From positions 1,463 through 65,462 of the forward strand of contig JAOIVE010000002.1 of NCBI GenBank assembly GCA_028223895.1: a DNA stretch of 64,000 nt, read 5' to 3'. Below are positions 15,018 to 56,145 of the stretch, one piece after another. The notes below the pieces were generated by a model. The model did not search any database. It was given only the letters and a program-made list of their open reading frames with translations, and was not told the DNA's origin. Made by a program: the position numbers and the translations under genes. The number at the start of each line of letters is the position of its first letter. Position 1 is the stretch's first letter. Source of the DNA: Rickettsiales bacterium (GTDB lineage: Bacteria; Pseudomonadota; Alphaproteobacteria; Rickettsiales; UBA6187).

Positions 15018-15094
15018 GGCGGGGTAGCTCAGCTGGTTAGAGCGGAGGAATCATAATCCTTAGGTCCGGGGTTCAAGTCCCTGTCCCGCTACCA
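15018..15094 (+). tRNA. tRNA with CAU anticodon (tRNA-Met; a lysidine-modified tRNA-Ile2 cannot be excluded)
   Basis: A hand-folded 77-nt cloverleaf. Acceptor GGCGGGG/TCCCGCT, D arm GCTC-AGCTGGTTA-GAGC, anticodon arm GAGGA-ATCATAA-TCCTT, T arm CGGGG-TTCAAGT-CCCTG, encoded CCA. Confidence 0.9.
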
Positions 15095-50895: not shown

Positions 50896-51378
50896 TTATT
50901 GTGTTATTTGCCATGTTCCATCTGGCATGCGGCAGGCATTACCATATGCTTGCTCTGTTTTTCCGTCAACATTTATTGTCTGAGTATATTCACGGCAATG
51001 AGAGCCAGAACTTGTTTGATATGTGCGTGTAGGAGTCACGCTACCAGAATGACCAGTATCAGGATTTTTCCAACTCATAGAAGTTCCCGTACGATTATTT
51101 TCAAGCGCCTGTTGAGAAGTTCTCTGGTGATAAGCCATATCCGCTTTATCTAATGATGATCCTATAGAGCGCCCAACTGCAGCCCCTGCAAGTGTGCCAA
51201 GTGCAGTTCCAACTAGTTGGCCTTTGCCTTTTCCAAACTGAGAACCAACCACAGCACCGCCAATAGCACCAAGAAATGTGCCCATATCTTCTTTTCTAAG
51301 CGCACCATCTTCTCTGGTTTGGCATGATGAAATTAAAAAAATAGTTGATGTCATTATAATAAATTTCTTCAAAAACAT
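50896..51378 (-). CDS. 17-kDa-surface-antigen-like outer-membrane lipoprotein (glycine-zipper)
   Basis: Lipobox LISSC. Glycine-zipper GAIGGAVVGSQFGKGKGQLVGTALGTLAGAAVG. C-terminal Cys-containing antigen-like domain. Confidence 0.8.
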   Translation of the reverse strand: MFLKKFIIMTSTIFLISSCQTREDGALRKEDMGTFLGAIGGAVVGSQFGKGKGQLVGTALGTLAGAAVGRSIGSSLDKADMAYHQRTSQQALENNRTGTSMSWKNPDTGHSGSVTPTRTYQTSSGSHCREYTQTINVDGKTEQAYGNACRMPDGTWQITQ

Positions 51379-51514
51379 CTCAAAAACCTATAAAAATATT
51401 TAACCACAGTTAAGACATGGTACACCAAGTCCTAACAAAAAAGCAATATGACAAAATGGTATAACAAAAAAAAAATCTAATTCCAGCATAAAATCATGAA
51501 AAAGGAAGAAAATA

Positions 51515-52441
51515 TTGTCTGATTTAAAACTAGAAAGCACTTTGATGAGGCGTGTAACGTTGCTATCTGTGACTATTGCTATAATTATTGTAACTGTAAA
51601 AATAATAGCATGGTTTTTCACTGACTCGCTTAGCCTGCTTTCTTCTTTGGTTGATTCTGTTTTTGATATACTCGCTTCTTGCGTTGGATTCTTTGCTGTT
51701 AGGGTGGCTTTGGAGCCTGCTGATGAAGACCATAGATTCGGACATGGTAAGGCCGAAGATATAGCAGCTTTTTCTCAAAGTGCTTTTATAGCCGGATCTG
51801 GAATATTCATTCTGGGGGAGTCAATCAGGAGGATATTTATTCCTCATAAAATTGATAATACAGATATTGGCATATTAGTAATGCTTATATCGACGTTTTT
51901 AACCTTGATATTAATAACTTATCAGCAATATGTAATAAAAAAAACTAACTCATCGGTTATAAAGGCTGATAACTTACATTATAAGGGTGATCTTCTGGTT
52001 AATTTATTAGTTATTTTTTCATTCTTTTCAGTAAAATTTTTTGATATGCATATTGCCGATCCTTTGTTGGCATTTGTCATAGCGTTATATATTTTTAAAT
52101 GTGCATGGAAGATTGCCATTGAAGCTCTTGATAACCTTATGGACAAAGAGATGGAAGATGTTGAAAAAAAGAAAATTATAGATATTATTTTAGACCATGC
52201 GGGTGTTCTTGGTATGCATGATTTGAAAACCAGGCGTTCAGGAAGGCATCCATTTATACAGTTTCATCTTGAGATCAAAGGAGAGGTGAGCCTAAAAAAA
52301 GCGCATGAAATTAGTGAAAAAGTAGAAAAAAGTTTATTAAAATCTTTTCCAAAGGCCGAGATTTTAATTCATCAGGATCCAAAGGCGGATAAGCCATTAT
52401 CTCTTAATTACAGACAAGTGGTTCCTGTTAAGAGGAGATAA
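51515..52441 (+). CDS. Cation diffusion facilitator family efflux transporter
   Basis: TTG start after AAGGAAG. SLLSSLVDSVFD and HRFGHGKAE motifs, six TM helices plus a cytoplasmic C-terminal domain. Confidence 0.88.
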   Translation: MSDLKLESTLMRRVTLLSVTIAIIIVTVKIIAWFFTDSLSLLSSLVDSVFDILASCVGFFAVRVALEPADEDHRFGHGKAEDIAAFSQSAFIAGSGIFILGESIRRIFIPHKIDNTDIGILVMLISTFLTLILITYQQYVIKKTNSSVIKADNLHYKGDLLVNLLVIFSFFSVKFFDMHIADPLLAFVIALYIFKCAWKIAIEALDNLMDKEMEDVEKKKIIDIILDHAGVLGMHDLKTRRSGRHPFIQFHLEIKGEVSLKKAHEISEKVEKSLLKSFPKAEILIHQDPKADKPLSLNYRQVVPVKRR

Positions 52442-52473
52442 AATTTAACATCTTAAGTTATAAGAGGTCGGTT

Positions 52474-52848
52474 ATGACAAATATTTTATGGGAAGCAAAT
52501 AATTTTACAAATCAAACAGATTCTGAAGATGGTGAAATATCTAATGAAGATATTGAGTCAATAAAAGAGAATGCGCATTCAGGTGATGCTGAATCTCAGT
52601 ATTTTTTAGGTCTTATGCTTGATATGGGAAAGGGGCTGGATCGTGATCCTCAGCAGGCTGTAATATGGTATACAAAAGCAGCAGAGCAAGATCATCCAAG
52701 CGCTCAGTATTTTCTTGGAAAAATGTATGATAGTCAGGAAAGTGGAATTCCAAAAGACAAAGAAAAAGCCATTTATTGGTATGAGCGTGCAAGTGCAAAT
52801 CATAATTTTTATGCAAAAGCAAAGCTTAAGGCTCTGATTGAAGGGTAG
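52474..52848 (+). CDS. Sel1-repeat (SLR/TPR-like) protein
   Basis: Two to three repeats of the A..QY.LG.MY..G.G...D...A..WY.KAA pattern. 124 aa, no signal peptide. Confidence 0.85.
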   Translation: MTNILWEANNFTNQTDSEDGEISNEDIESIKENAHSGDAESQYFLGLMLDMGKGLDRDPQQAVIWYTKAAEQDHPSAQYFLGKMYDSQESGIPKDKEKAIYWYERASANHNFYAKAKLKALIEG

Positions 52849-52965: not shown

Positions 52966-55900
52966 ATGAAGCCCTTACCGCAAAAATATGATACGCATGA
53001 AGTTGAAAGCAAATGGCAAAAATTCTGGGAAGAGAATAAAATCTATGCTTGGGATGAGTCTGAAGTAAGAGAAAATACATTTGTTATAGATACGCCGCCG
53101 CCGACAGTATCTGGTTTGTTGCATATGGGGCATGTATTTTCATATACGCAAGCAGATTTTATCGCTCGTTATCAGCGCATGTCGGGAAAAACTGTTTTTT
53201 ATCCTATGGGCTTTGATGATAACGGCCTGCCAACAGAGCGTCTGGTAGAAAAAACAAAAAAAGTTCGCGCATCTAATATGAGTCGTGAAGATTTTATTGA
53301 GCTGTGTAATGGAGTTTCTGAAGAGGCGCGTAAGGAATATAGAGATCTTTTTCAGTCCATAGCTTTGAGTGTTGACTGGCAGCAGGAATATCACACAGTA
53401 AGTGCGGAAAGTCGTAAAATATCGCAAATGTCTTTTCTAGACTTATATAATAAGGGCAGGGCTTATCGTAAATTGCAGCCAATGTTGTGGGATCCGGTAG
53501 ATCAAACAGCCATAGCACAAGCTGAGATTGAAGATAAGGAGATGCCAAGTCAGAAGAATTACTTGCATTTTGGTTTAGTTGATAATGACTCTGATTCCCT
53601 CTCCCGTTTACGGGGGAGGGCTAGGGAGGGGGGTTGGAGAAATTCTGACGAACTCATCAAAAATGCTAGAGAATTAAGACAGAGTCAAACTGATGTTGAA
53701 AAATTACTTTGGTCTATATTGCGTAGGAAGCAAATAAAGGGTTTTAAATTTAGACGACAACATCCAATTGAAAAATATATATCAGATTTTGCGTGTATTG
53801 AGGCCAAGCTAATAATAGAGTTGGATGGTGGGCAGCATGCGGAGCAACAGGAATACGATAAAGCCAGAACTGAATTTTTTCAAAAGGAAGGGTATCAGGT
53901 TTTGCGTTTCTGGAATAATGATTTGCTTAATAATTTAGACGGAGTTTTGGAAACGATTTGGAATGCTTTGCCTGGTGATAGTGACCCCCTCCCTAACCCT
54001 CCCCCGCAAACGGGAGAGGGGAATTCTATCAAAATTATGACTACAAGGCCTGAATTGTTAGGCGCTTGCGTTGCTGTAATATGTCATACTGATGATGCTG
54101 ATAAATATAAAGGAAAGATGGCAGTAACTCCGGTTTTTGGGGTTAAAGTTCCTATTATTGCAGATGATAAGGTTGATAAAGAAAAGGGTACTGGTCTTGT
54201 TATGTGCTGTACCTTTGGTGATGAAACGGATATTGAATGGTGGCGTGAGCATGACTTAAATACGCGCCTGATATTAAATAAATATGGAAAAATTGAAGTT
54301 AATATTTCTCAGTCTTCAATAATATTTAATGATGAGAAAAGCGCTATTAACTCTGAAAATACTATTGATATTGCAAAAACAATTTCTGCATTTGAACAAA
54401 TTCAAAATTTAAAGTCTCGCACGACTGCGCGCGCAAAAATGCTTGAATTATTAGCAGAAGATGGGGCTATATTTAAAGATCCTGAAACTGGTGTTCATGC
54501 TGAGCCATGTGCTGAGCGTTCCGGGTCTCCATTGGAAATACTTCCTACAAATCAATGGTTTGTAAAAATACTTGATCAAAAAGAAGAGCTTAAAGAAAAA
54601 GCTAAAGAATGTAACTGGTATCCAGATTATATGCGCATAAGGGTGGATCAGTGGATTGACGGTTTAAACTGGGATTGGTGTATTTCTCGTCAGAGATATT
54701 ATGGTGTGCCATTTCCGGTTTGGTTCTCAAAAAGAGCTGGCGAGGAGGGGAGGATTATTGTTGCTGATATAGACCAGCTTCCTGTAAATCCTCTTGTTGA
54801 TTTGCCAAAAGGTTATAAGGCTGATGAGGTAATAGCAGAAGCTGATGTTATGGATACCTGGGCAACAAGTTCTGTATCGCCGCAATTGAGCTCTAAAGGA
54901 ATTTCTTATTCCTCCTCCCGCTTGCGGGGGGAGGTTAGGAGGGGGGATTATTCTAATTCTTCCTCTGATGAAAATGCCCCCTCCCTAGCCCTCCCCCGTG
55001 AACGGGAGAGGGAACAAGAAGAGGAAGGATATATGATTGACGAAAATCGTCATGCAAAATTATTTCCGGCCGATTTGCGCCCTCAGGCACATGAAATTAT
55101 TCGTACATGGGCGTTTTATACAATAGTAAAAGCGCATTTACATGAAGATAAAATTCCGTGGAAAAATTTAATGATTTCCGGCTGGTGTCTGGCCTCAGAT
55201 AAGACAAAAATGAGTAAATCTAAGGGAAATGTGATAACTCCTGTTGATTTGGTTGAGTCAAAAGGTTCTGATGTTGTGCGTTTCTGGGCTTCAACGTCGC
55301 GTTTGGGAGCTGATTCTGCGTATTCTGAAGATGTTCTTAAAATTGGAAAAAAACTGGTAAATAAATTATGGAATGCAACCAAGTTTGCTGCCATACATTT
55401 GGATAAAATTGAAGAAAAGCCTGGCACTGCAATAGAAGATATTGAGTCTGGAATAATATCTGAAGAGTTGGATCTGTGGATATTAACAAAGTTAAATAAG
55501 ACTATTAAGAAAGCAACGCAAGAGTTTGATAAATATGAATATTGCAATGCTCGTGCTGCTGTTGAGGATTTCTTCTGGAATGACTTATGTGATAATTATC
55601 TGGAGCTTGTTAAAGTCAGAGTTTATGGCGAGGCTGAGGGTACTAGTAAGGCTGGTCAGAAGAGTGCGGTCTACACAATATATCATTGTTTAGATGGAAT
55701 TTTACGTTTATTTGCGCCGATTGTTCCTCATGTGACTGATGAGCTTTATACTCATATTTTTGAAGAGGAGTCAGAAGCTTTGGGTGGGTCGATAAATTGT
55801 CGTGGAACCTGGCCTATAGCTGATAATTATCCGCAAAATATAGAAGCTGAGCAAGCTGGAATAGCATGTGTAAATATATTAAATGTTATTCGTAAAATGA

Positions 55901-56145
55901 AGGCAGAGCGCAATGTTTCAATAAAATGGCCACTTAATTTTATTGCAATAGAAGGTGATAATAAATTATCTGACTCGGTGCTTAATGAGCTTAAAAATGT
56001 AACAAATGCATTAGAGGTTGTTTTTGCAAATAAAAAAGGGCAATCTGAATTTGAGCAAATAGATAAAACTGATGATGGTAAATTTACTGTAAAGGTTGAA
56101 TTTGCCAGCCAAAGCGAAGATAAAAAATTGGAAGCTGCCGTATAA
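52966..56145 (+). CDS. valS: Valine--tRNA ligase (rickettsial/archaeal type) carrying two in-frame repeat-element insertions
   Basis: DTPPPTVSGLLHMGH (HIGH), FYPMGFDDNGLPTERLVEK, TTRPE, and KMSKSKGN. The N-terminal block resembles the Rickettsia-type ValRS. The ORF stays open through both insertions. Confidence 0.95.
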   Translation: MKPLPQKYDTHEVESKWQKFWEENKIYAWDESEVRENTFVIDTPPPTVSGLLHMGHVFSYTQADFIARYQRMSGKTVFYPMGFDDNGLPTERLVEKTKKVRASNMSREDFIELCNGVSEEARKEYRDLFQSIALSVDWQQEYHTVSAESRKISQMSFLDLYNKGRAYRKLQPMLWDPVDQTAIAQAEIEDKEMPSQKNYLHFGLVDNDSDSLSRLRGRAREGGWRNSDELIKNARELRQSQTDVEKLLWSILRRKQIKGFKFRRQHPIEKYISDFACIEAKLIIELDGGQHAEQQEYDKARTEFFQKEGYQVLRFWNNDLLNNLDGVLETIWNALPGDSDPLPNPPPQTGEGNSIKIMTTRPELLGACVAVICHTDDADKYKGKMAVTPVFGVKVPIIADDKVDKEKGTGLVMCCTFGDETDIEWWREHDLNTRLILNKYGKIEVNISQSSIIFNDEKSAINSENTIDIAKTISAFEQIQNLKSRTTARAKMLELLAEDGAIFKDPETGVHAEPCAERSGSPLEILPTNQWFVKILDQKEELKEKAKECNWYPDYMRIRVDQWIDGLNWDWCISRQRYYGVPFPVWFSKRAGEEGRIIVADIDQLPVNPLVDLPKGYKADEVIAEADVMDTWATSSVSPQLSSKGISYSSSRLRGEVRRGDYSNSSSDENAPSLALPREREREQEEEGYMIDENRHAKLFPADLRPQAHEIIRTWAFYTIVKAHLHEDKIPWKNLMISGWCLASDKTKMSKSKGNVITPVDLVESKGSDVVRFWASTSRLGADSAYSEDVLKIGKKLVNKLWNATKFAAIHLDKIEEKPGTAIEDIESGIISEELDLWILTKLNKTIKKATQEFDKYEYCNARAAVEDFFWNDLCDNYLELVKVRVYGEAEGTSKAGQKSAVYTIYHCLDGILRLFAPIVPHVTDELYTHIFEEESEALGGSINCRGTWPIADNYPQNIEAEQAGIACVNILNVIRKMKAERNVSIKWPLNFIAIEGDNKLSDSVLNELKNVTNALEVVFANKKGQSEFEQIDKTDDGKFTVKVEFASQSEDKKLEAAV
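53596..54022 (+). mobile_element. About 427-bp element: 39-nt GC-rich terminal inverted repeats flanking a DUF559 (Vsr-like PD-(D/E)XK endonuclease) domain, in-frame within valS
   Basis: TIR-L is 53596-53634 (TCCCTCTCCCGTTTACGGGGGAGGGCTAGGGAGGGGGGT). TIR-R is 53984-54022 and is its reverse complement apart from 2 substitutions and 2 one-nt run-length differences. Bases 53665-53970 encode ARELRQSQTDVEKLLW...KFRRQHPI..YI.DFAC...LIIELDGGQH...VLRFWN, the DUF559 pattern. Confidence 0.8.
54910..55013. mobile_element. About 104-bp cargo-less (MITE-like) copy of the same inverted-repeat element, in-frame within valS
   Basis: TIR-like arms at 54910-54947 and 54977-55013 are separated by about 28 bp. 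The right arm's reverse complement is near-identical to TIR-L of the DUF559 element. Confidence 0.75.

What the first reader, a model, noticed from the sequence alone, without database searches (positions are those of the whole stretch)
53596..54022. TIR-flanked DUF559 (Vsr-like nuclease) module inserted in-frame inside the essential valS gene
Seen directly: two 39-nt, very GC-rich segments (53596-53634 and 53984-54022) are reverse complements of each other. They differ by only 2 substitutions and 2 one-nt run-length differences. Each is itself an imperfect hairpin (CCCTCTCCCG-TTTA-CGGGGGAGGG). Between them, 53665-53970 encodes a complete DUF559 domain with the acidic/His motif intact (DFAC...IIELDGGQH). 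The whole ~427-bp unit is read in the ValRS frame with no stop and no ATG of its own. It splits ...LHFGLVDNDSD from SIKIMTTRPE, just ahead of the TTRPE block of the CP1/editing region. The repeats are translated as SLSRLRGRAREGG and PLPNPPPQTGEG. Their GC-richness contrasts sharply with the AT-rich host gene. Established: Rickettsia palindromic elements are known to insert in-frame into protein genes, but they carry no enzyme. DUF559 belongs to the Vsr/PD-(D/E)XK nuclease fold. Inference: this may be an 'autonomous' form of an in-frame-inserting palindromic element whose mobilising or homing nuclease is expressed as a domain of an aminoacyl-tRNA synthetase. I am not aware of such an arrangement being described.
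Basis: partly seen in the sequence, partly recalled or inferred. Interest (0 to 1): 0.85.

Follow-up and report, generated by a model that had tools for sequence, protein, structure and literature searches.

The report
Nuclease cassette translated inside valS gene
The valyl-tRNA synthetase gene of this Rickettsiales bacterium carries, in frame, a small nuclease gene bracketed by GC-rich hairpin repeats plus a nuclease-less miniature copy. The same cassette sits inside many other essential genes across bacteria, so it looks like a widespread and apparently undescribed kind of selfish DNA that survives by being translated as part of its host protein.

Summary
valS (52966-56145) is one intact 1059-aa ORF. 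It contains a full DUF559 domain (PF04480, E 2.5e-44) between two 36-37-nt GC-rich arms that are 94% complementary, and each arm is itself a hairpin.

A second, nuclease-less doublet of the same arms lies in frame at 54910-55012. These are the only copies in the 64 kb.

Fifteen of the 120 best ValRS homologues carry DUF559, always at one of these same two sites. The closest relatives are empty. One site shows full, miniature, remnant and empty states.

The cassette is general:
- 66 of 85 DUF559 genes from very diverse bacteria have the same hairpin on both flanks.
- The two arms of an element co-vary.
- Arms without a nuclease far outnumber arms with one.
- The cassette is embedded in frame in PriA, ThiC, BioA, HsdM, HsdS, NadE and about 40 other families.

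The fold is closest to 3HRL and to the homing endonuclease I-Bth0305I.

My reading is that this is a selfish hairpin-repeat/nuclease element translated through as a ValRS domain. Mobility and nuclease activity are inferred, not shown, and I found no recent copies. No description was found in the searchable literature.

The parts
52966..56145 (+). valS, the host gene: one uninterrupted 1059-aa ORF that reads through both inserts
   Evidence: ORF list. Pfam tRNA-synt_1 plus Anticodon_1. NCBIfam NF009687 valine-tRNA ligase, 995 bits against a cut-off of 738. 100% identical to an NCBI protein from a Rickettsiales MAG.
53597..53633 (+). Left arm of the full-length element: a hairpin (CCCTCTCCCG-TTTA-CGGGGGAGGG) followed by a G-run tract (CTAGGGAGGGGG). 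Translated as SLSRLRGRAREGG.
   Evidence: Inverted repeat I1. DNA hairpin of -9.5 kcal/mol. Same architecture as the consensus arm found across phyla. AF2 pLDDT below 50 over ValRS residues 208-240.
53653..53970 (+). DUF559 (Vsr-like PD-(D/E)XK) nuclease domain, in the ValRS frame, with no start codon of its own
   Evidence: PF04480 E 2.5e-44, profile 3-108 of 109. PDB 3HRL E 8e-27 by sequence. AF2 model of the domain at pLDDT 86.8, with Foldseek hits 3HRL, 3R3P (I-Bth0305I) and 1VSR. D52, E63, D65, Q68 and H69 are invariant in 16 ValRS-embedded copies.
53985..54021 (+). Right arm of the full-length element: the reverse complement of the left arm (C-run tract, then hairpin). Translated as PLPNPPPQTGEG.
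   Evidence: 94% complementary. (hairpin of -9.0 kcal/mol). AF2 pLDDT below 50 at residues 338-351.
54910..54946 (+). Left arm of the miniature, nuclease-less element at the second valS site
   Evidence: Sequence. DNA hairpin of -9.7 kcal/mol. 35 of 40 identical to the arm at the same site in the relative L084.
54947..54976 (+). 30-nt spacer of the miniature element, read in frame as part of ...GDYSNSSSDENA...
   Evidence: The spacer length matches the 21-51 nt spacers of nuclease-less doublets in metagenomes.
54977..55012 (+). Right arm of the miniature element
   Evidence: 1 mismatch to the 24-nt core, and 92% identical to the right arm of the full-length element. Its reverse complement matches the full element's left arm at 36 of 39 positions.

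Best explanation
The segment is a copy of a widespread selfish element. The element is a DUF559 (Vsr-like) endonuclease ORF bracketed by a pair of inverted GC-rich arms, each made of a hairpin plus a G-run tract. It has lodged in a permissive surface loop of ValRS at the Rossmann/CP1 junction.

How it persists
- The element has no promoter, start or stop codon of its own.
- It is transcribed and translated straight through, so ValRS carries the nuclease as an extra domain.
- The domain is tethered by two flexible Pro/Gly/Arg-rich linkers that the arms happen to encode. This is what makes the insertion harmless to an essential gene.

The second copy
- The nuclease-less doublet at 54910-55012 is the non-autonomous form of the same element at a second hot spot in valS.
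- It is either an empty doublet or a derivative that has lost its nuclease.

How it spreads
- The arms are cis-acting nucleic-acid sites. They are kept GC-rich and mutually complementary in an AT-rich genome.
- The nuclease most likely nicks or cuts at or next to such arms, or at unoccupied target loops.
- The element is then copied in by recombinational repair. That is homing-like gene conversion, not cut-and-paste transposition.
- Over time the nuclease is lost, then the arms decay, and the site returns to empty.

Shown versus inferred
- Shown: the anatomy, translatability, the patchy four-state distribution, co-variation of the arms, the generality across bacteria and host genes, and the fold.
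- Inferred: expression of the fusion protein, nuclease activity, the arms as its substrate, and the copying mechanism.

The confidence of 0.55 is for the whole statement, mechanism included. That this is a mobile-element-derived, hairpin-flanked DUF559 cassette read in frame I would put at about 0.9.
For: Insertion rather than native domain
- 15 of the 120 best ValRS homologues have PF04480. The closest relatives (P0125, P0129, P0130) are empty at both sites.

Only two sites are used
- All full-length copies sit at site A, before TTRPE (8 proteins), or at site B, between SPQLSSKGI and FPADLRPQ (8 proteins). P0156 has both.
- Site B shows four states: full, miniature (window, L084, L003), single-hairpin remnant (L086) and empty (L002, L085).
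- In the window, L001, L002 and L003 (about 122 kb in all), all 17 hairpins lie inside valS.

The arms are nucleic-acid elements
- They are read in at least two different frames in different hosts (SLSRLRG.. against LPSPLRGEG..; PLPNP.. against LTPALSQRERE) yet keep the consensus CCCTCTCCC-N4-GGGAGAGGG-YYR-GGGTGAGGG.
- The left arm against the reverse complement of the right arm of the same element is 86% identical. Between elements it is 74% (p 6e-18). An element's own partner is the best match in 23 of 48 cases.
- The ORF between the arms has mostly drifted to host-like AT-richness while the arms have not.

Generality
- 66 of 85 DUF559 copies from Proteobacteria, Dehalococcoidia, Nitrospirota and others have the hairpin on both flanks, and 80 of 85 on at least one.
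- Hairpin density is 3.1 per kb within 200 nt of a DUF559, 0.13 per kb at 1-4 kb, and 0.03 per kb in shuffled sequence.

In-frame embedding elsewhere
- Hosts confirmed by Pfam: PriA, HsdS, ThiC, an Eco57I-type methylase, BioA (two Thiobacillus species, same site), HsdM, YgiQ, the CCA-adding enzyme and an M14 peptidase.
- 52 of the best 150 cluster representatives are at least 300 aa long with DUF559 embedded in or fused to a larger protein. They span 42 Pfam families, and 18 are HsdS.

Other points
- Arms outnumber nucleases. Only 5 of 83 arm matches in metagenomes adjoin a DUF559. 17 form about 105-bp doublets with 21-51-nt spacers like the valS miniature. E. coli genomes have a median of 15 arm matches.
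- Fold: 3HRL (TM 0.86), then the homing endonuclease I-Bth0305I (probability 1.00, TM 0.74), then Vsr.
- A DUF559 protein acts as an endonuclease in vivo in Caulobacter (PMC12907096).
- It is neither intron nor intein. The only Rfam match above gathering score anywhere in the window is a tRNA, and there is no Hint domain.
- AF2 gives a folded DUF559 domain with pLDDT below 50 in both arm-encoded linkers.
Against: - There is no sign of recent movement. No two DUF559 elements among 87 are near-identical, not even copies from the same genome.
- ValRS-embedded copies are only 42-73% identical and partly co-diverge with the host. Ancient insertion plus vertical descent and loss could explain much of the pattern.
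- Classical homing needs no terminal repeats, so the arms are unexplained by pure homing.
- No strand-transfer chemistry is known for Vsr-like nucleases, which weakens a transposase role.
- No target-site duplication or exact boundary could be defined, because the empty alleles are too diverged.
- Finding embedded copies through called proteins and in-frame ORFs is biased towards in-frame cases.
- Expression, retention in the protein and nuclease activity are all untested.
Confidence: 0.55

Rival explanations
1. REP/RAYT-like partnership. The hairpin arms, solo or as about 105-bp doublets, are the mobile unit. DUF559 is their associated nuclease, acting in trans on hairpins in single-stranded or cruciform DNA. 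The nuclease gene sits between two arms because it rides inside, or has been captured by, one doublet.
For: - The nuclease gene is flanked by inverted copies of the repeat in 66 of 85 cases.
- Arms without a nuclease vastly outnumber arms with one. E. coli has about 15 arm matches per genome, and the K-12 stretch examined holds one DUF559 gene, ycjD, next to an arm.
- Doublets of uniform architecture resemble REPINs (abstracts of PMC3116915 and PMC3337134 as listed).
- Extra solo hairpins accumulate near DUF559 copies.
- No target duplication is seen, as with the hairpin-dependent IS200/IS605 and REP elements.
Against: - DUF559 is a PD-(D/E)XK nuclease, not an HUH/Y1 transposase, and no joining activity is known for this fold.
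- In the window and its relatives the hairpins are confined to valS rather than dispersed.
- No near-identical recent copies were seen in the sample.
Confidence: 0.3
2. Pure site-specific homing endonuclease gene. DUF559 recognises the conserved valS sequence next to each loop, cuts empty alleles and is copied in. The arms are incidental linker-coding sequence.
For: - Only two sites are used across diverged hosts, each beside a highly conserved block (TTRPE; DTWATSS/FPADLRPQ).
- The four-state cycle is seen at site B.
- The second-closest solved fold is a real homing endonuclease.
- An unspliced in-frame homing insert has a precedent in ShiLan (PMC11855218).
Against: - The arms are conserved as DNA across phyla, co-vary in pairs, and exist mostly without a nuclease. 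They are therefore not incidental.
- The same cassette sits in more than 40 unrelated host families and, most often, between genes.
- Occupancy of the two sites could reflect permissive loops plus common descent.
Confidence: 0.15
3. Inert relic or domesticated domain. An ancient insertion is tolerated, or exploited (for example as a repair nuclease expressed at housekeeping level), and is inherited vertically without any mobility today.
For: - Deep divergence and partial congruence with the host tree.
- The ORF's base composition has largely drifted to that of the host.
- No recent copies.
- 27 invariant columns in the embedded domains indicate that the protein is still under selection.
Against: - An inert relic would not keep GC-rich, 94% complementary arms in a 37% GC genome, with G or C at 9 of 13 third codon positions of the left arm (read directly from the sequence).
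- Right arms are more alike within a genome than between orthologous sites.
- The patchy presence among close relatives, and the miniature and remnant forms, point to turnover.
- A host-selected function would not be scattered over 40 unrelated host proteins.
Confidence: 0.15
4. Artefact: an assembly chimera, or an intron or intein that is removed.
For: None found. The GC contrast alone could suggest foreign sequence.
Against: - The same architecture appears in at least 15 ValRS genes from independent NCBI, ENA, JGI and Logan assemblies.
- The frame is kept through every insert.
- The only Rfam match above gathering score in the window is a tRNA, so no intron family is detected, and there is no Hint domain.
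- The antisense strand of the insert is full of stop codons, so an invertible cassette is also excluded here.
Confidence: 0.02

Closest known systems
REP/REPIN repeats and their RAYT transposases
   Same: - A nuclease gene is bracketed by inverted copies of a short GC-rich hairpin repeat.
- The repeat also exists in far more copies without the gene.
- Doublets consist of two inverted repeats separated by a short spacer.
- No target duplication is seen.
(abstracts of PMC3116915 and PMC3337134 as listed)
   Different: - The enzyme is a Vsr-like PD-(D/E)XK nuclease, not an HUH/Y1 transposase.
- The unit is open to translation and is often inside genes, whereas REPs are extragenic by definition.
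- Mobility is unproven.
Rickettsia palindromic elements (RPEs; Ogata et al. 2000, from memory) and other intragenic small repeats (Delihas 2008, PMC2229807, abstract)
   Same: Palindromic repeats are inserted in frame in protein-coding genes of a Rickettsiales bacterium, and are tolerated as extra peptide segments.
   Different: - RPEs carry no enzyme.
- The arms here are GC-rich and belong to a family found across bacteria.
- Sequence kinship to RPE families was not tested.
Homing endonuclease I-Bth0305I (PDB 3R3P), and homing endonuclease genes and inteins in general
   Same: - The nuclease fold matches (Foldseek probability 1.00, TM 0.74). The same clade is listed in PMC3424549.
- The element occupies conserved essential genes, with empty alleles in relatives and a gain-decay-loss series.
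   Different: - I-Bth0305I sits in a group I intron.
- Here there is no intron and no intein splicing domain, so the nuclease stays in the host protein.
- Terminal inverted repeats are present.
ShiLan insertion in a phage DNA methylase (PMC11855218)
   Same: It is an unspliced insertion that is stop-free in the host frame, carries an endonuclease and behaves like a homing element.
   Different: - The ShiLan nuclease is an HNH enzyme encoded out of frame with its own GTG start.
- Here the nuclease is read in the host frame and has hairpin arms.
BoxC repeats of E. coli (56 bp, about 32 copies; PMC2267715)
   Same: - The arm consensus matches 5409 of 5426 E. coli genomes, with a median of 15 places per genome.
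- One copy lies beside ycjD, a DUF559 gene of K-12, in the fabI region.
- One intergenic copy is a doublet.
   Different: - That these matches are what the literature calls BoxC rests on my memory plus the similar copy number. It was not verified.
- In the searchable literature BoxC has no assigned function and no link to DUF559.
E. coli Vsr and Caulobacter VsrA (PMC12907096)
   Same: They share the fold family. A DUF559 protein behaves as an endonuclease in vivo.
   Different: Those are free-standing repair-type genes tied to cytosine methylation. No methylase partner, and no evidence of T:G repair, is seen here.

Membership tests
DUF559 / Vsr-like PD-(D/E)XK nucleases (PF04480) | Profile match above the curated threshold over the full domain | tested here: met
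   150 bits against a cut-off of 20.6, profile positions 3-108 of 109.
DUF559 / Vsr-like PD-(D/E)XK nucleases (PF04480) | Vsr-type alpha/beta fold | tested here: met
   AF2 model at pLDDT 86.8. Foldseek hits: 3HRL (TM 0.86), 3R3P (0.74), 1VSR (probability 0.99).
DUF559 / Vsr-like PD-(D/E)XK nucleases (PF04480) | Conserved acidic/His motif (D..ExDxxQH) | tested here: met
   D52, E63, D65, Q68 and H69 are invariant in 16 ValRS-embedded copies.
DUF559 / Vsr-like PD-(D/E)XK nucleases (PF04480) | Endonuclease activity | not testable with these tools
   Only an in-vivo report for a Caulobacter DUF559 protein exists (PMC12907096).
Valine-tRNA ligase (host gene) | Equivalog-level profile match and class I signature motifs | tested here: met
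   NF009687 scores 995 bits against a cut-off of 738. HMGH and KMSKS are in the translation.
Intein | Hint splicing domain and junction residues (Cys/Ser/Thr at the N-junction; His-Asn plus Cys/Ser/Thr at the C-junction) | tested here: not met
   No Hint-family Pfam hit. The junctions read ..DSD|SLS.. and ..GEG|NSI...
Group I/II intron | Ribozyme structure | tested here: not met
   Rfam at gathering score finds only a tRNA in the whole window. The frame is kept in every host.
Homing endonuclease gene | Same site occupied in diverged hosts, with empty alleles in relatives | tested here: met
   Two sites, 15 occupied ValRS, and empty closest relatives.
Homing endonuclease gene | The nuclease cleaves the unoccupied target and is copied in | not testable with these tools
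   Needs an in-vitro cleavage test and a genetic test.
REP/RAYT (REPIN) systems | Associated gene flanked by inverted copies of the repeat, and many copies of the repeat lacking the gene | tested here: met
   66 of 85 copies are flanked on both sides. Only 5 of 83 arms adjoin a DUF559. E. coli has a median of 15 arm matches per genome.
REP/RAYT (REPIN) systems | HUH/Y1 tyrosine transposase | tested here: not met
   The only domain between the arms is DUF559.
Rickettsia palindromic elements | Palindromic repeat inserted in frame in coding genes | tested here: met
Rickettsia palindromic elements | Many dispersed copies in the genome, and sequence similarity to an RPE family | tested here: inconclusive
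   Only two copies occur in the 64 kb, both in valS. The rest of the genome was not available, and similarity to RPE consensus sequences was not tested.
IS/MITE with DDE-type transposition | Transposase and target-site duplication | tested here: not met
   No transposase domain. No direct repeat is seen at the junctions in the window, L001-L003 or L084. The boundaries are imprecise, however.
BoxC repeats (E. coli) | Sequence identity with the published BoxC consensus | tested here: inconclusive
   The arm consensus hits nearly all E. coli genomes at a BoxC-like copy number, but the published consensus was not available for comparison.

The most novel reading that the evidence does not exclude
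GC-rich hairpin repeats of the BoxC type and DUF559 nucleases form a bacteria-wide repeat/nuclease partnership that has not been recognised. It is analogous to REP/RAYT but driven by a Vsr-like PD-(D/E)XK enzyme. Its units are built to be translated through: the arms double as flexible linkers. This lets the element colonise essential genes such as valS, priA, thiC, bioA and hsdS in frame, and express its nuclease as a domain of the host protein, which then catalyses further spread.
Probability: 0.4. Interest if true: 0.9.

Novelty: new variant of a known kind. Interest (0 to 1): 0.8.

Why it matters
If this reading is right:
- It gives a function and a partner to DUF559, one of the commonest uncharacterised bacterial domains, with 26,656 cluster representatives at E no worse than 1e-3.
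- It gives the same to a long-known orphan repeat family.
- It adds a third way for selfish DNA to live inside essential genes without killing them. Beside RNA splicing (introns) and protein splicing (inteins), the element simply stays in the protein as a tethered domain.
- It would explain odd annotations. DUF559 is enriched among predicted inversion targets (PMC9881135). Synthetases carry names such as 'valyl-tRNA synthetase/very-short-patch-repair endonuclease'. A 132-aa DUF559 protein is labelled lysyl-tRNA synthetase.
- It offers naturally validated permissive insertion sites and linkers for protein engineering.
- It makes testable the question of how RPE-like in-frame repeats move.

Tried and rejected
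- Exact look-up of the window's ValRS in the contig index found nothing, although the protein is in the protein collection.
- The homologue search with the 142-aa insert returned only short free-standing proteins and missed the window's own ValRS. It could not be used to find host fusions. The exhaustive HMMER search and the genome scan did that job.
- Programmed inversion between the arms is rejected for this locus, because the antisense strand has many stops in all frames.
- Intron and intein readings are rejected.
- I looked for a target-site duplication and for a shared target motif at the two sites. Nothing convincing was found, and the few short resemblances (AATTCT; AAGGATT..GGTRAGCTTG) were not pursued.
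- A T:G wobble in the hairpin stems and a CTAGG motif in the arms are tempting for a Vsr-like enzyme. They are specific to this genome and absent from arms elsewhere, so I dropped them.
- I looked for recent intragenomic copies and found none.
- Plasmids rarely carry the domain: 37 of 72,556 records, mostly megaplasmids or chromids. PHROGs gives only weak hits. No vector for spread was identified.
- The pattern built from this genome's arm variant turned out not to be lineage-specific. It could not be used to count copies in this organism.
- Literature searches on DUF559, COG2852/PF04480, ycjD, BoxC and in-frame homing found no description of the hairpin-DUF559 unit. One 2026 preprint on coevolving proteins and non-coding elements could not be opened.
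Full report
**1. What is in the window**

valS is a single 1059-aa ORF at 52966-56145 on the + strand. It is a valine-tRNA ligase by NCBIfam NF009687: 995 bits against a cut-off of 738. It is 100% identical to a protein annotated in an NCBI 'Rickettsiales bacterium' assembly.

- Two 36-nt arms at 53597-53632 and 53985-54020 are 94% complementary.
- The 24-nt core never occurs in 100 shuffles of the window.
- Each arm folds alone into a 10-bp hairpin.
- A complete DUF559 domain lies between the arms: PF04480, E 2.5e-44, profile 3-108 of 109, nt 53653-53970.
- The domain is in the ValRS frame and has no start codon of its own.
- GC jumps to 0.53-0.60 over the arms. Between them most 60-nt windows are at 0.25-0.37, and the window as a whole is 0.367.

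Its 427-nt interval is not a multiple of three, so the ends are off by about one base.

**2.

At 54910-55012 the same two arms recur in the same inverted arrangement, separated by only 30 nt. This copy is also read in frame (..SSSRLRGEVRRGDYSNSSSDENAPSLALPRERE..). These four arms are the only ones in the 64 kb.

**3. It is an insertion, and two sites are used again and again**

Fifteen of the 120 best ValRS homologues carry PF04480. The other 105 do not, including the nearest relatives at 68-71% identity.

In the alignment every full-length copy sits at one of two places:
- Site A lies between NYxxFGLxx and xIMTTRPE. This is the window's full element, and 8 proteins have it.
- Site B lies between SPQLSSKGI and FPADLRPQAHEI. 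This is the window's miniature, and 8 proteins carry a full DUF559 there. One protein, P0156, has both.

At the DNA level site B shows every stage:
- full element (L001);
- miniature doublet (window, L084, L003);
- single-hairpin remnant (L086);
- clean empty site (L002, L085).

In the window, L001, L002 and L003 (about 122 kb in all), all 17 hairpins lie inside valS. The independent sources (NCBI, ENA, JGI, Logan) rule out an assembly artefact.

**4. Age and dynamics**

The embedded nuclease domains are only 42-73% identical to one another.
- Some pairs follow the host tree (P0154/P0222; P0156_B/P0238_B).
- Others do not (P0122_A is far from P0121_A; P0163_B sits next to P0183_B). These neighbour-joining trees use about 124 residues and have low resolution.
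- 27 columns are invariant, including the D..ExDxxQH motif, so the domain is under purifying selection.
- Most of the ORF's base composition has drifted to host level, while the arms stay GC-rich and complementary.
- Right arms at sites A and B are more alike within a genome than orthologous arms are between genomes: 34/39 in the window and 39/42 in L084, against 32-35 of 41-42 between them.
- The left arm at site B, by contrast, is conserved between the two genomes at 35/40.

This suggests continuing homogenisation or replacement of arms on top of old vertical inheritance.

**5. The unit is general**

A scan of one genome per species found at least 596 related loci, and 80 were kept. They come from Alpha-, Beta-, Gamma- and Deltaproteobacteria, Dehalococcoidia, Nitrospirota, Binatia and Planctomycetes.

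- Of 85 DUF559 copies, 66 have a C-rich hairpin on both flanks and 80 have at least one.
- The arm consensus is CCCTCTCCC-N4-GGGAGAGGG-YYR-GGG(G)TGAGGG upstream, with its reverse complement downstream.
- The four-G-run motif is present upstream in 54 of 87 copies and the four-C-run motif downstream in 59 of 87. Control windows show 2.7-3.0%.
- The two arms of an element are 86% identical to each other, against 74% between elements (p 6e-18). An element's own partner is the best match in 23 of 48 cases.
- The arms are read in different frames in different hosts, so what is conserved is the nucleic acid, not the peptide.

**6. In-frame residence in other genes**

Stop-to-stop ORFs and Pfam show the cassette inside:
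- PriA (Micavibrio);
- HsdS;
- ThiC (another Rickettsiales MAG);
- an Eco57I-type methylase that also carries about ten extra in-frame hairpins;
- BioA-type aminotransferase (two Thiobacillus species, same site);
- HsdM (Mariprofundus);
- YgiQ;
- the CCA-adding enzyme;
- an M14 peptidase.

In an exhaustive HMMER search, 52 of the best 150 cluster representatives are at least 300 aa long, with the DUF559 embedded in or fused to a larger protein. Their other domains span 42 Pfam families: 18 are HsdS, and the rest include NadE, EarP, CobT, Pth, Sua5, ThiE, FolK, HolC, RecO and an IleRS-like protein.

**7. Arms without a nuclease**

An exact pattern built from this genome's arm variant hit at least 120 metagenome contigs, mostly from high-GC organisms.
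- Only 5 of 83 matches adjoin a DUF559.
- 17 form doublets with the same hairpin-G tract / 21-51-nt spacer / C tract-hairpin layout as the valS miniature.
- The arm consensus also matches 5409 of 5426 complete E. coli genomes, with a median of 15 places each.
- In K-12, the DUF559 gene ycjD next to fabI ends in a degenerate arm and has a canonical arm about 170 nt downstream.
- Another E. coli copy, between wzc and wcaA, is a doublet.

From memory these are the 'BoxC' repeats (56 bp, about 32 copies; PMC2267715), but I could not compare them with the published consensus. The uniform spacer length means the valS miniature may be a standard empty doublet rather than an ad hoc deletion product. 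I cannot decide between the two.

**8. The protein**

- By sequence, the only solved relative is 3HRL, an uncharacterised Neisseria protein (E 8e-27).
- The AF2 model of the domain (pLDDT 86.8) matches 3HRL, then the catalytic domain of the homing endonuclease I-Bth0305I (probability 1.00, TM 0.74), then E. coli Vsr.
- In the full ValRS model the DUF559 part is folded, with block means mostly 63-83. Both arm-encoded segments (residues 208-240 and 338-351) and the miniature region (633-712) fall below pLDDT 50, consistent with flexible tethers.
- A Caulobacter DUF559 protein causes an SOS response when a cytosine methylase is missing, which is evidence that the family can cut DNA in vivo (PMC12907096).

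**9. What it is not**

- It is not an intein: there is no Hint domain and the junction residues are wrong.
- It is not an intron: Rfam at gathering score finds only a tRNA in the window, and the frame is always kept.
- It is not an invertible cassette at this locus: the antisense strand is full of stops. The arms probably do explain why DUF559 genes scored as enriched inversion targets in PMC9881135.
- It is not a DDE-type IS or MITE: there is no transposase and no visible target duplication.

As RNA, the two arms can pair with each other and loop out the nuclease ORF (z -7.1). I have no evidence that this is used.

**10. Mechanism I commit to**

The element is a selfish hairpin-repeat/nuclease unit that persists in essential genes because it can be translated through.
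- The arms are its cis sites.
- The nuclease, made as a ValRS domain, most likely starts nick- or break-induced copying into arms or empty loops.
- Loss of the nuclease and decay of the arms then complete the cycle.

The main competing version is the REP/RAYT-like one, in which the hairpin doublet is the mobile unit and DUF559 acts on it in trans. Pure homing and inert-relic readings are less likely for the reasons given under the rival explanations.

Weaknesses:
- No recent copies were found.
- No biochemistry exists for this element.
- No joining chemistry is known for this fold.
- My search for embedded copies was biased towards in-frame cases.

**11. Novelty**

Searches of the available literature found no description of hairpin-flanked DUF559 units or of their in-frame residence in host genes. 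The library lacks most subscription journals, so this is absence of evidence only.

Each ingredient has a precedent: RPEs, REP/RAYT, homing endonucleases, and the ShiLan insert (PMC11855218). I therefore rate it a new variant of a known kind, with high interest.

Noticed in passing
window 54910-55012: A nuclease-less doublet of the same arms (36-37-nt arms, 30-nt spacer) sits in frame at a second valS site. It lies outside the coordinates I was given.
   Followed up: yes
L001 10001-13732 (valS of GCA_964564675.1, 57% GC): One valS gene carries two full DUF559 cassettes, a miniature at a third variable loop, and nine hairpins in all. There are none in the 20 kb around it.
   Followed up: partly
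P0170 (ValRS homologue), alignment A1 columns 240-325: About five tandem in-frame copies of a hairpin-encoded peptide (EKPSPSGRGLGEGTT) precede its DUF559. The arms can amplify locally.
   Followed up: no
L036 3077-7531: A 1485-aa Eco57I/MmeI-type methylase ORF carries one DUF559 cassette plus roughly ten further in-frame hairpin peptides (LPSPSGRGAGGEG and variants).
   Followed up: partly
Alignment A3 (52 long DUF559-containing cluster representatives): 18 of the 52 are type I restriction specificity subunits (HsdS), by far the commonest host family. Why HsdS is favoured is unexplained.
   Followed up: no
L087 4240-4480 (E. coli K-12, ycjD-fabI spacer): The last roughly 50 nt of ycjD (GGAGACGGTGCTGGAGAATATTC..CTGAACCG) are duplicated just downstream of the gene, between a degenerate arm and a canonical arm. 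This is a sign of past rearrangement at the element's end.
   Followed up: no
L088 1450-1540 (E. coli, wzc-wcaA spacer): This E. coli arm doublet has the opposite topology to the valS miniature. The hairpins face inward and the C and G tracts face outward. 19 of 83 metagenome arms also have such an outer partner.
   Followed up: partly
window 53611-53633 and the arms generally: Every arm contains four runs of at least three G on one strand. This fits a G-quadruplex-type motif, placed on the sense strand upstream and on the antisense strand downstream of DUF559 (48 of 87 elements against about 3% of control windows). No role is known.
   Followed up: partly
window 53597-53620, 53997-54020, 54912-54933, 54989-55012: All four hairpin stems in this genome share the same T:G wobble at the sixth stem pair. 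Arms in other genomes have perfect stems. It is a shared derived feature of this genome's arms.
   Followed up: partly
P0108 and L053 2034-3527: A 132-aa free-standing DUF559 protein is labelled 'lysyl-tRNA synthetase class 2' by JGI. In L053 a DUF559 lies in frame directly upstream of a sequence that I read, by eye only, as an EpmA/PoxA-like lysyl-tRNA synthetase paralogue; this host was not scanned against Pfam. That may be the source of the mislabel.
   Followed up: partly
Foldseek result: Several mitoribosomal large-subunit proteins of Toxoplasma and Tetrahymena match the DUF559 model (TM 0.53-0.64). Eukaryotic organelle ribosomes appear to have recruited this fold.
   Followed up: no
window 15018-15094: A single tRNA-Met (CAT) is the only RNA gene detected in the window. 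No Rfam family other than tRNA reaches gathering score.
   Followed up: no
window 50896-52848 compared with L003, L084, L085: The gene order 17-kDa antigen-like, cation efflux, (Sel1 repeat), valS is conserved among the relatives with filled and with empty valS sites. The comparison is therefore between true orthologous loci.
   Followed up: partly
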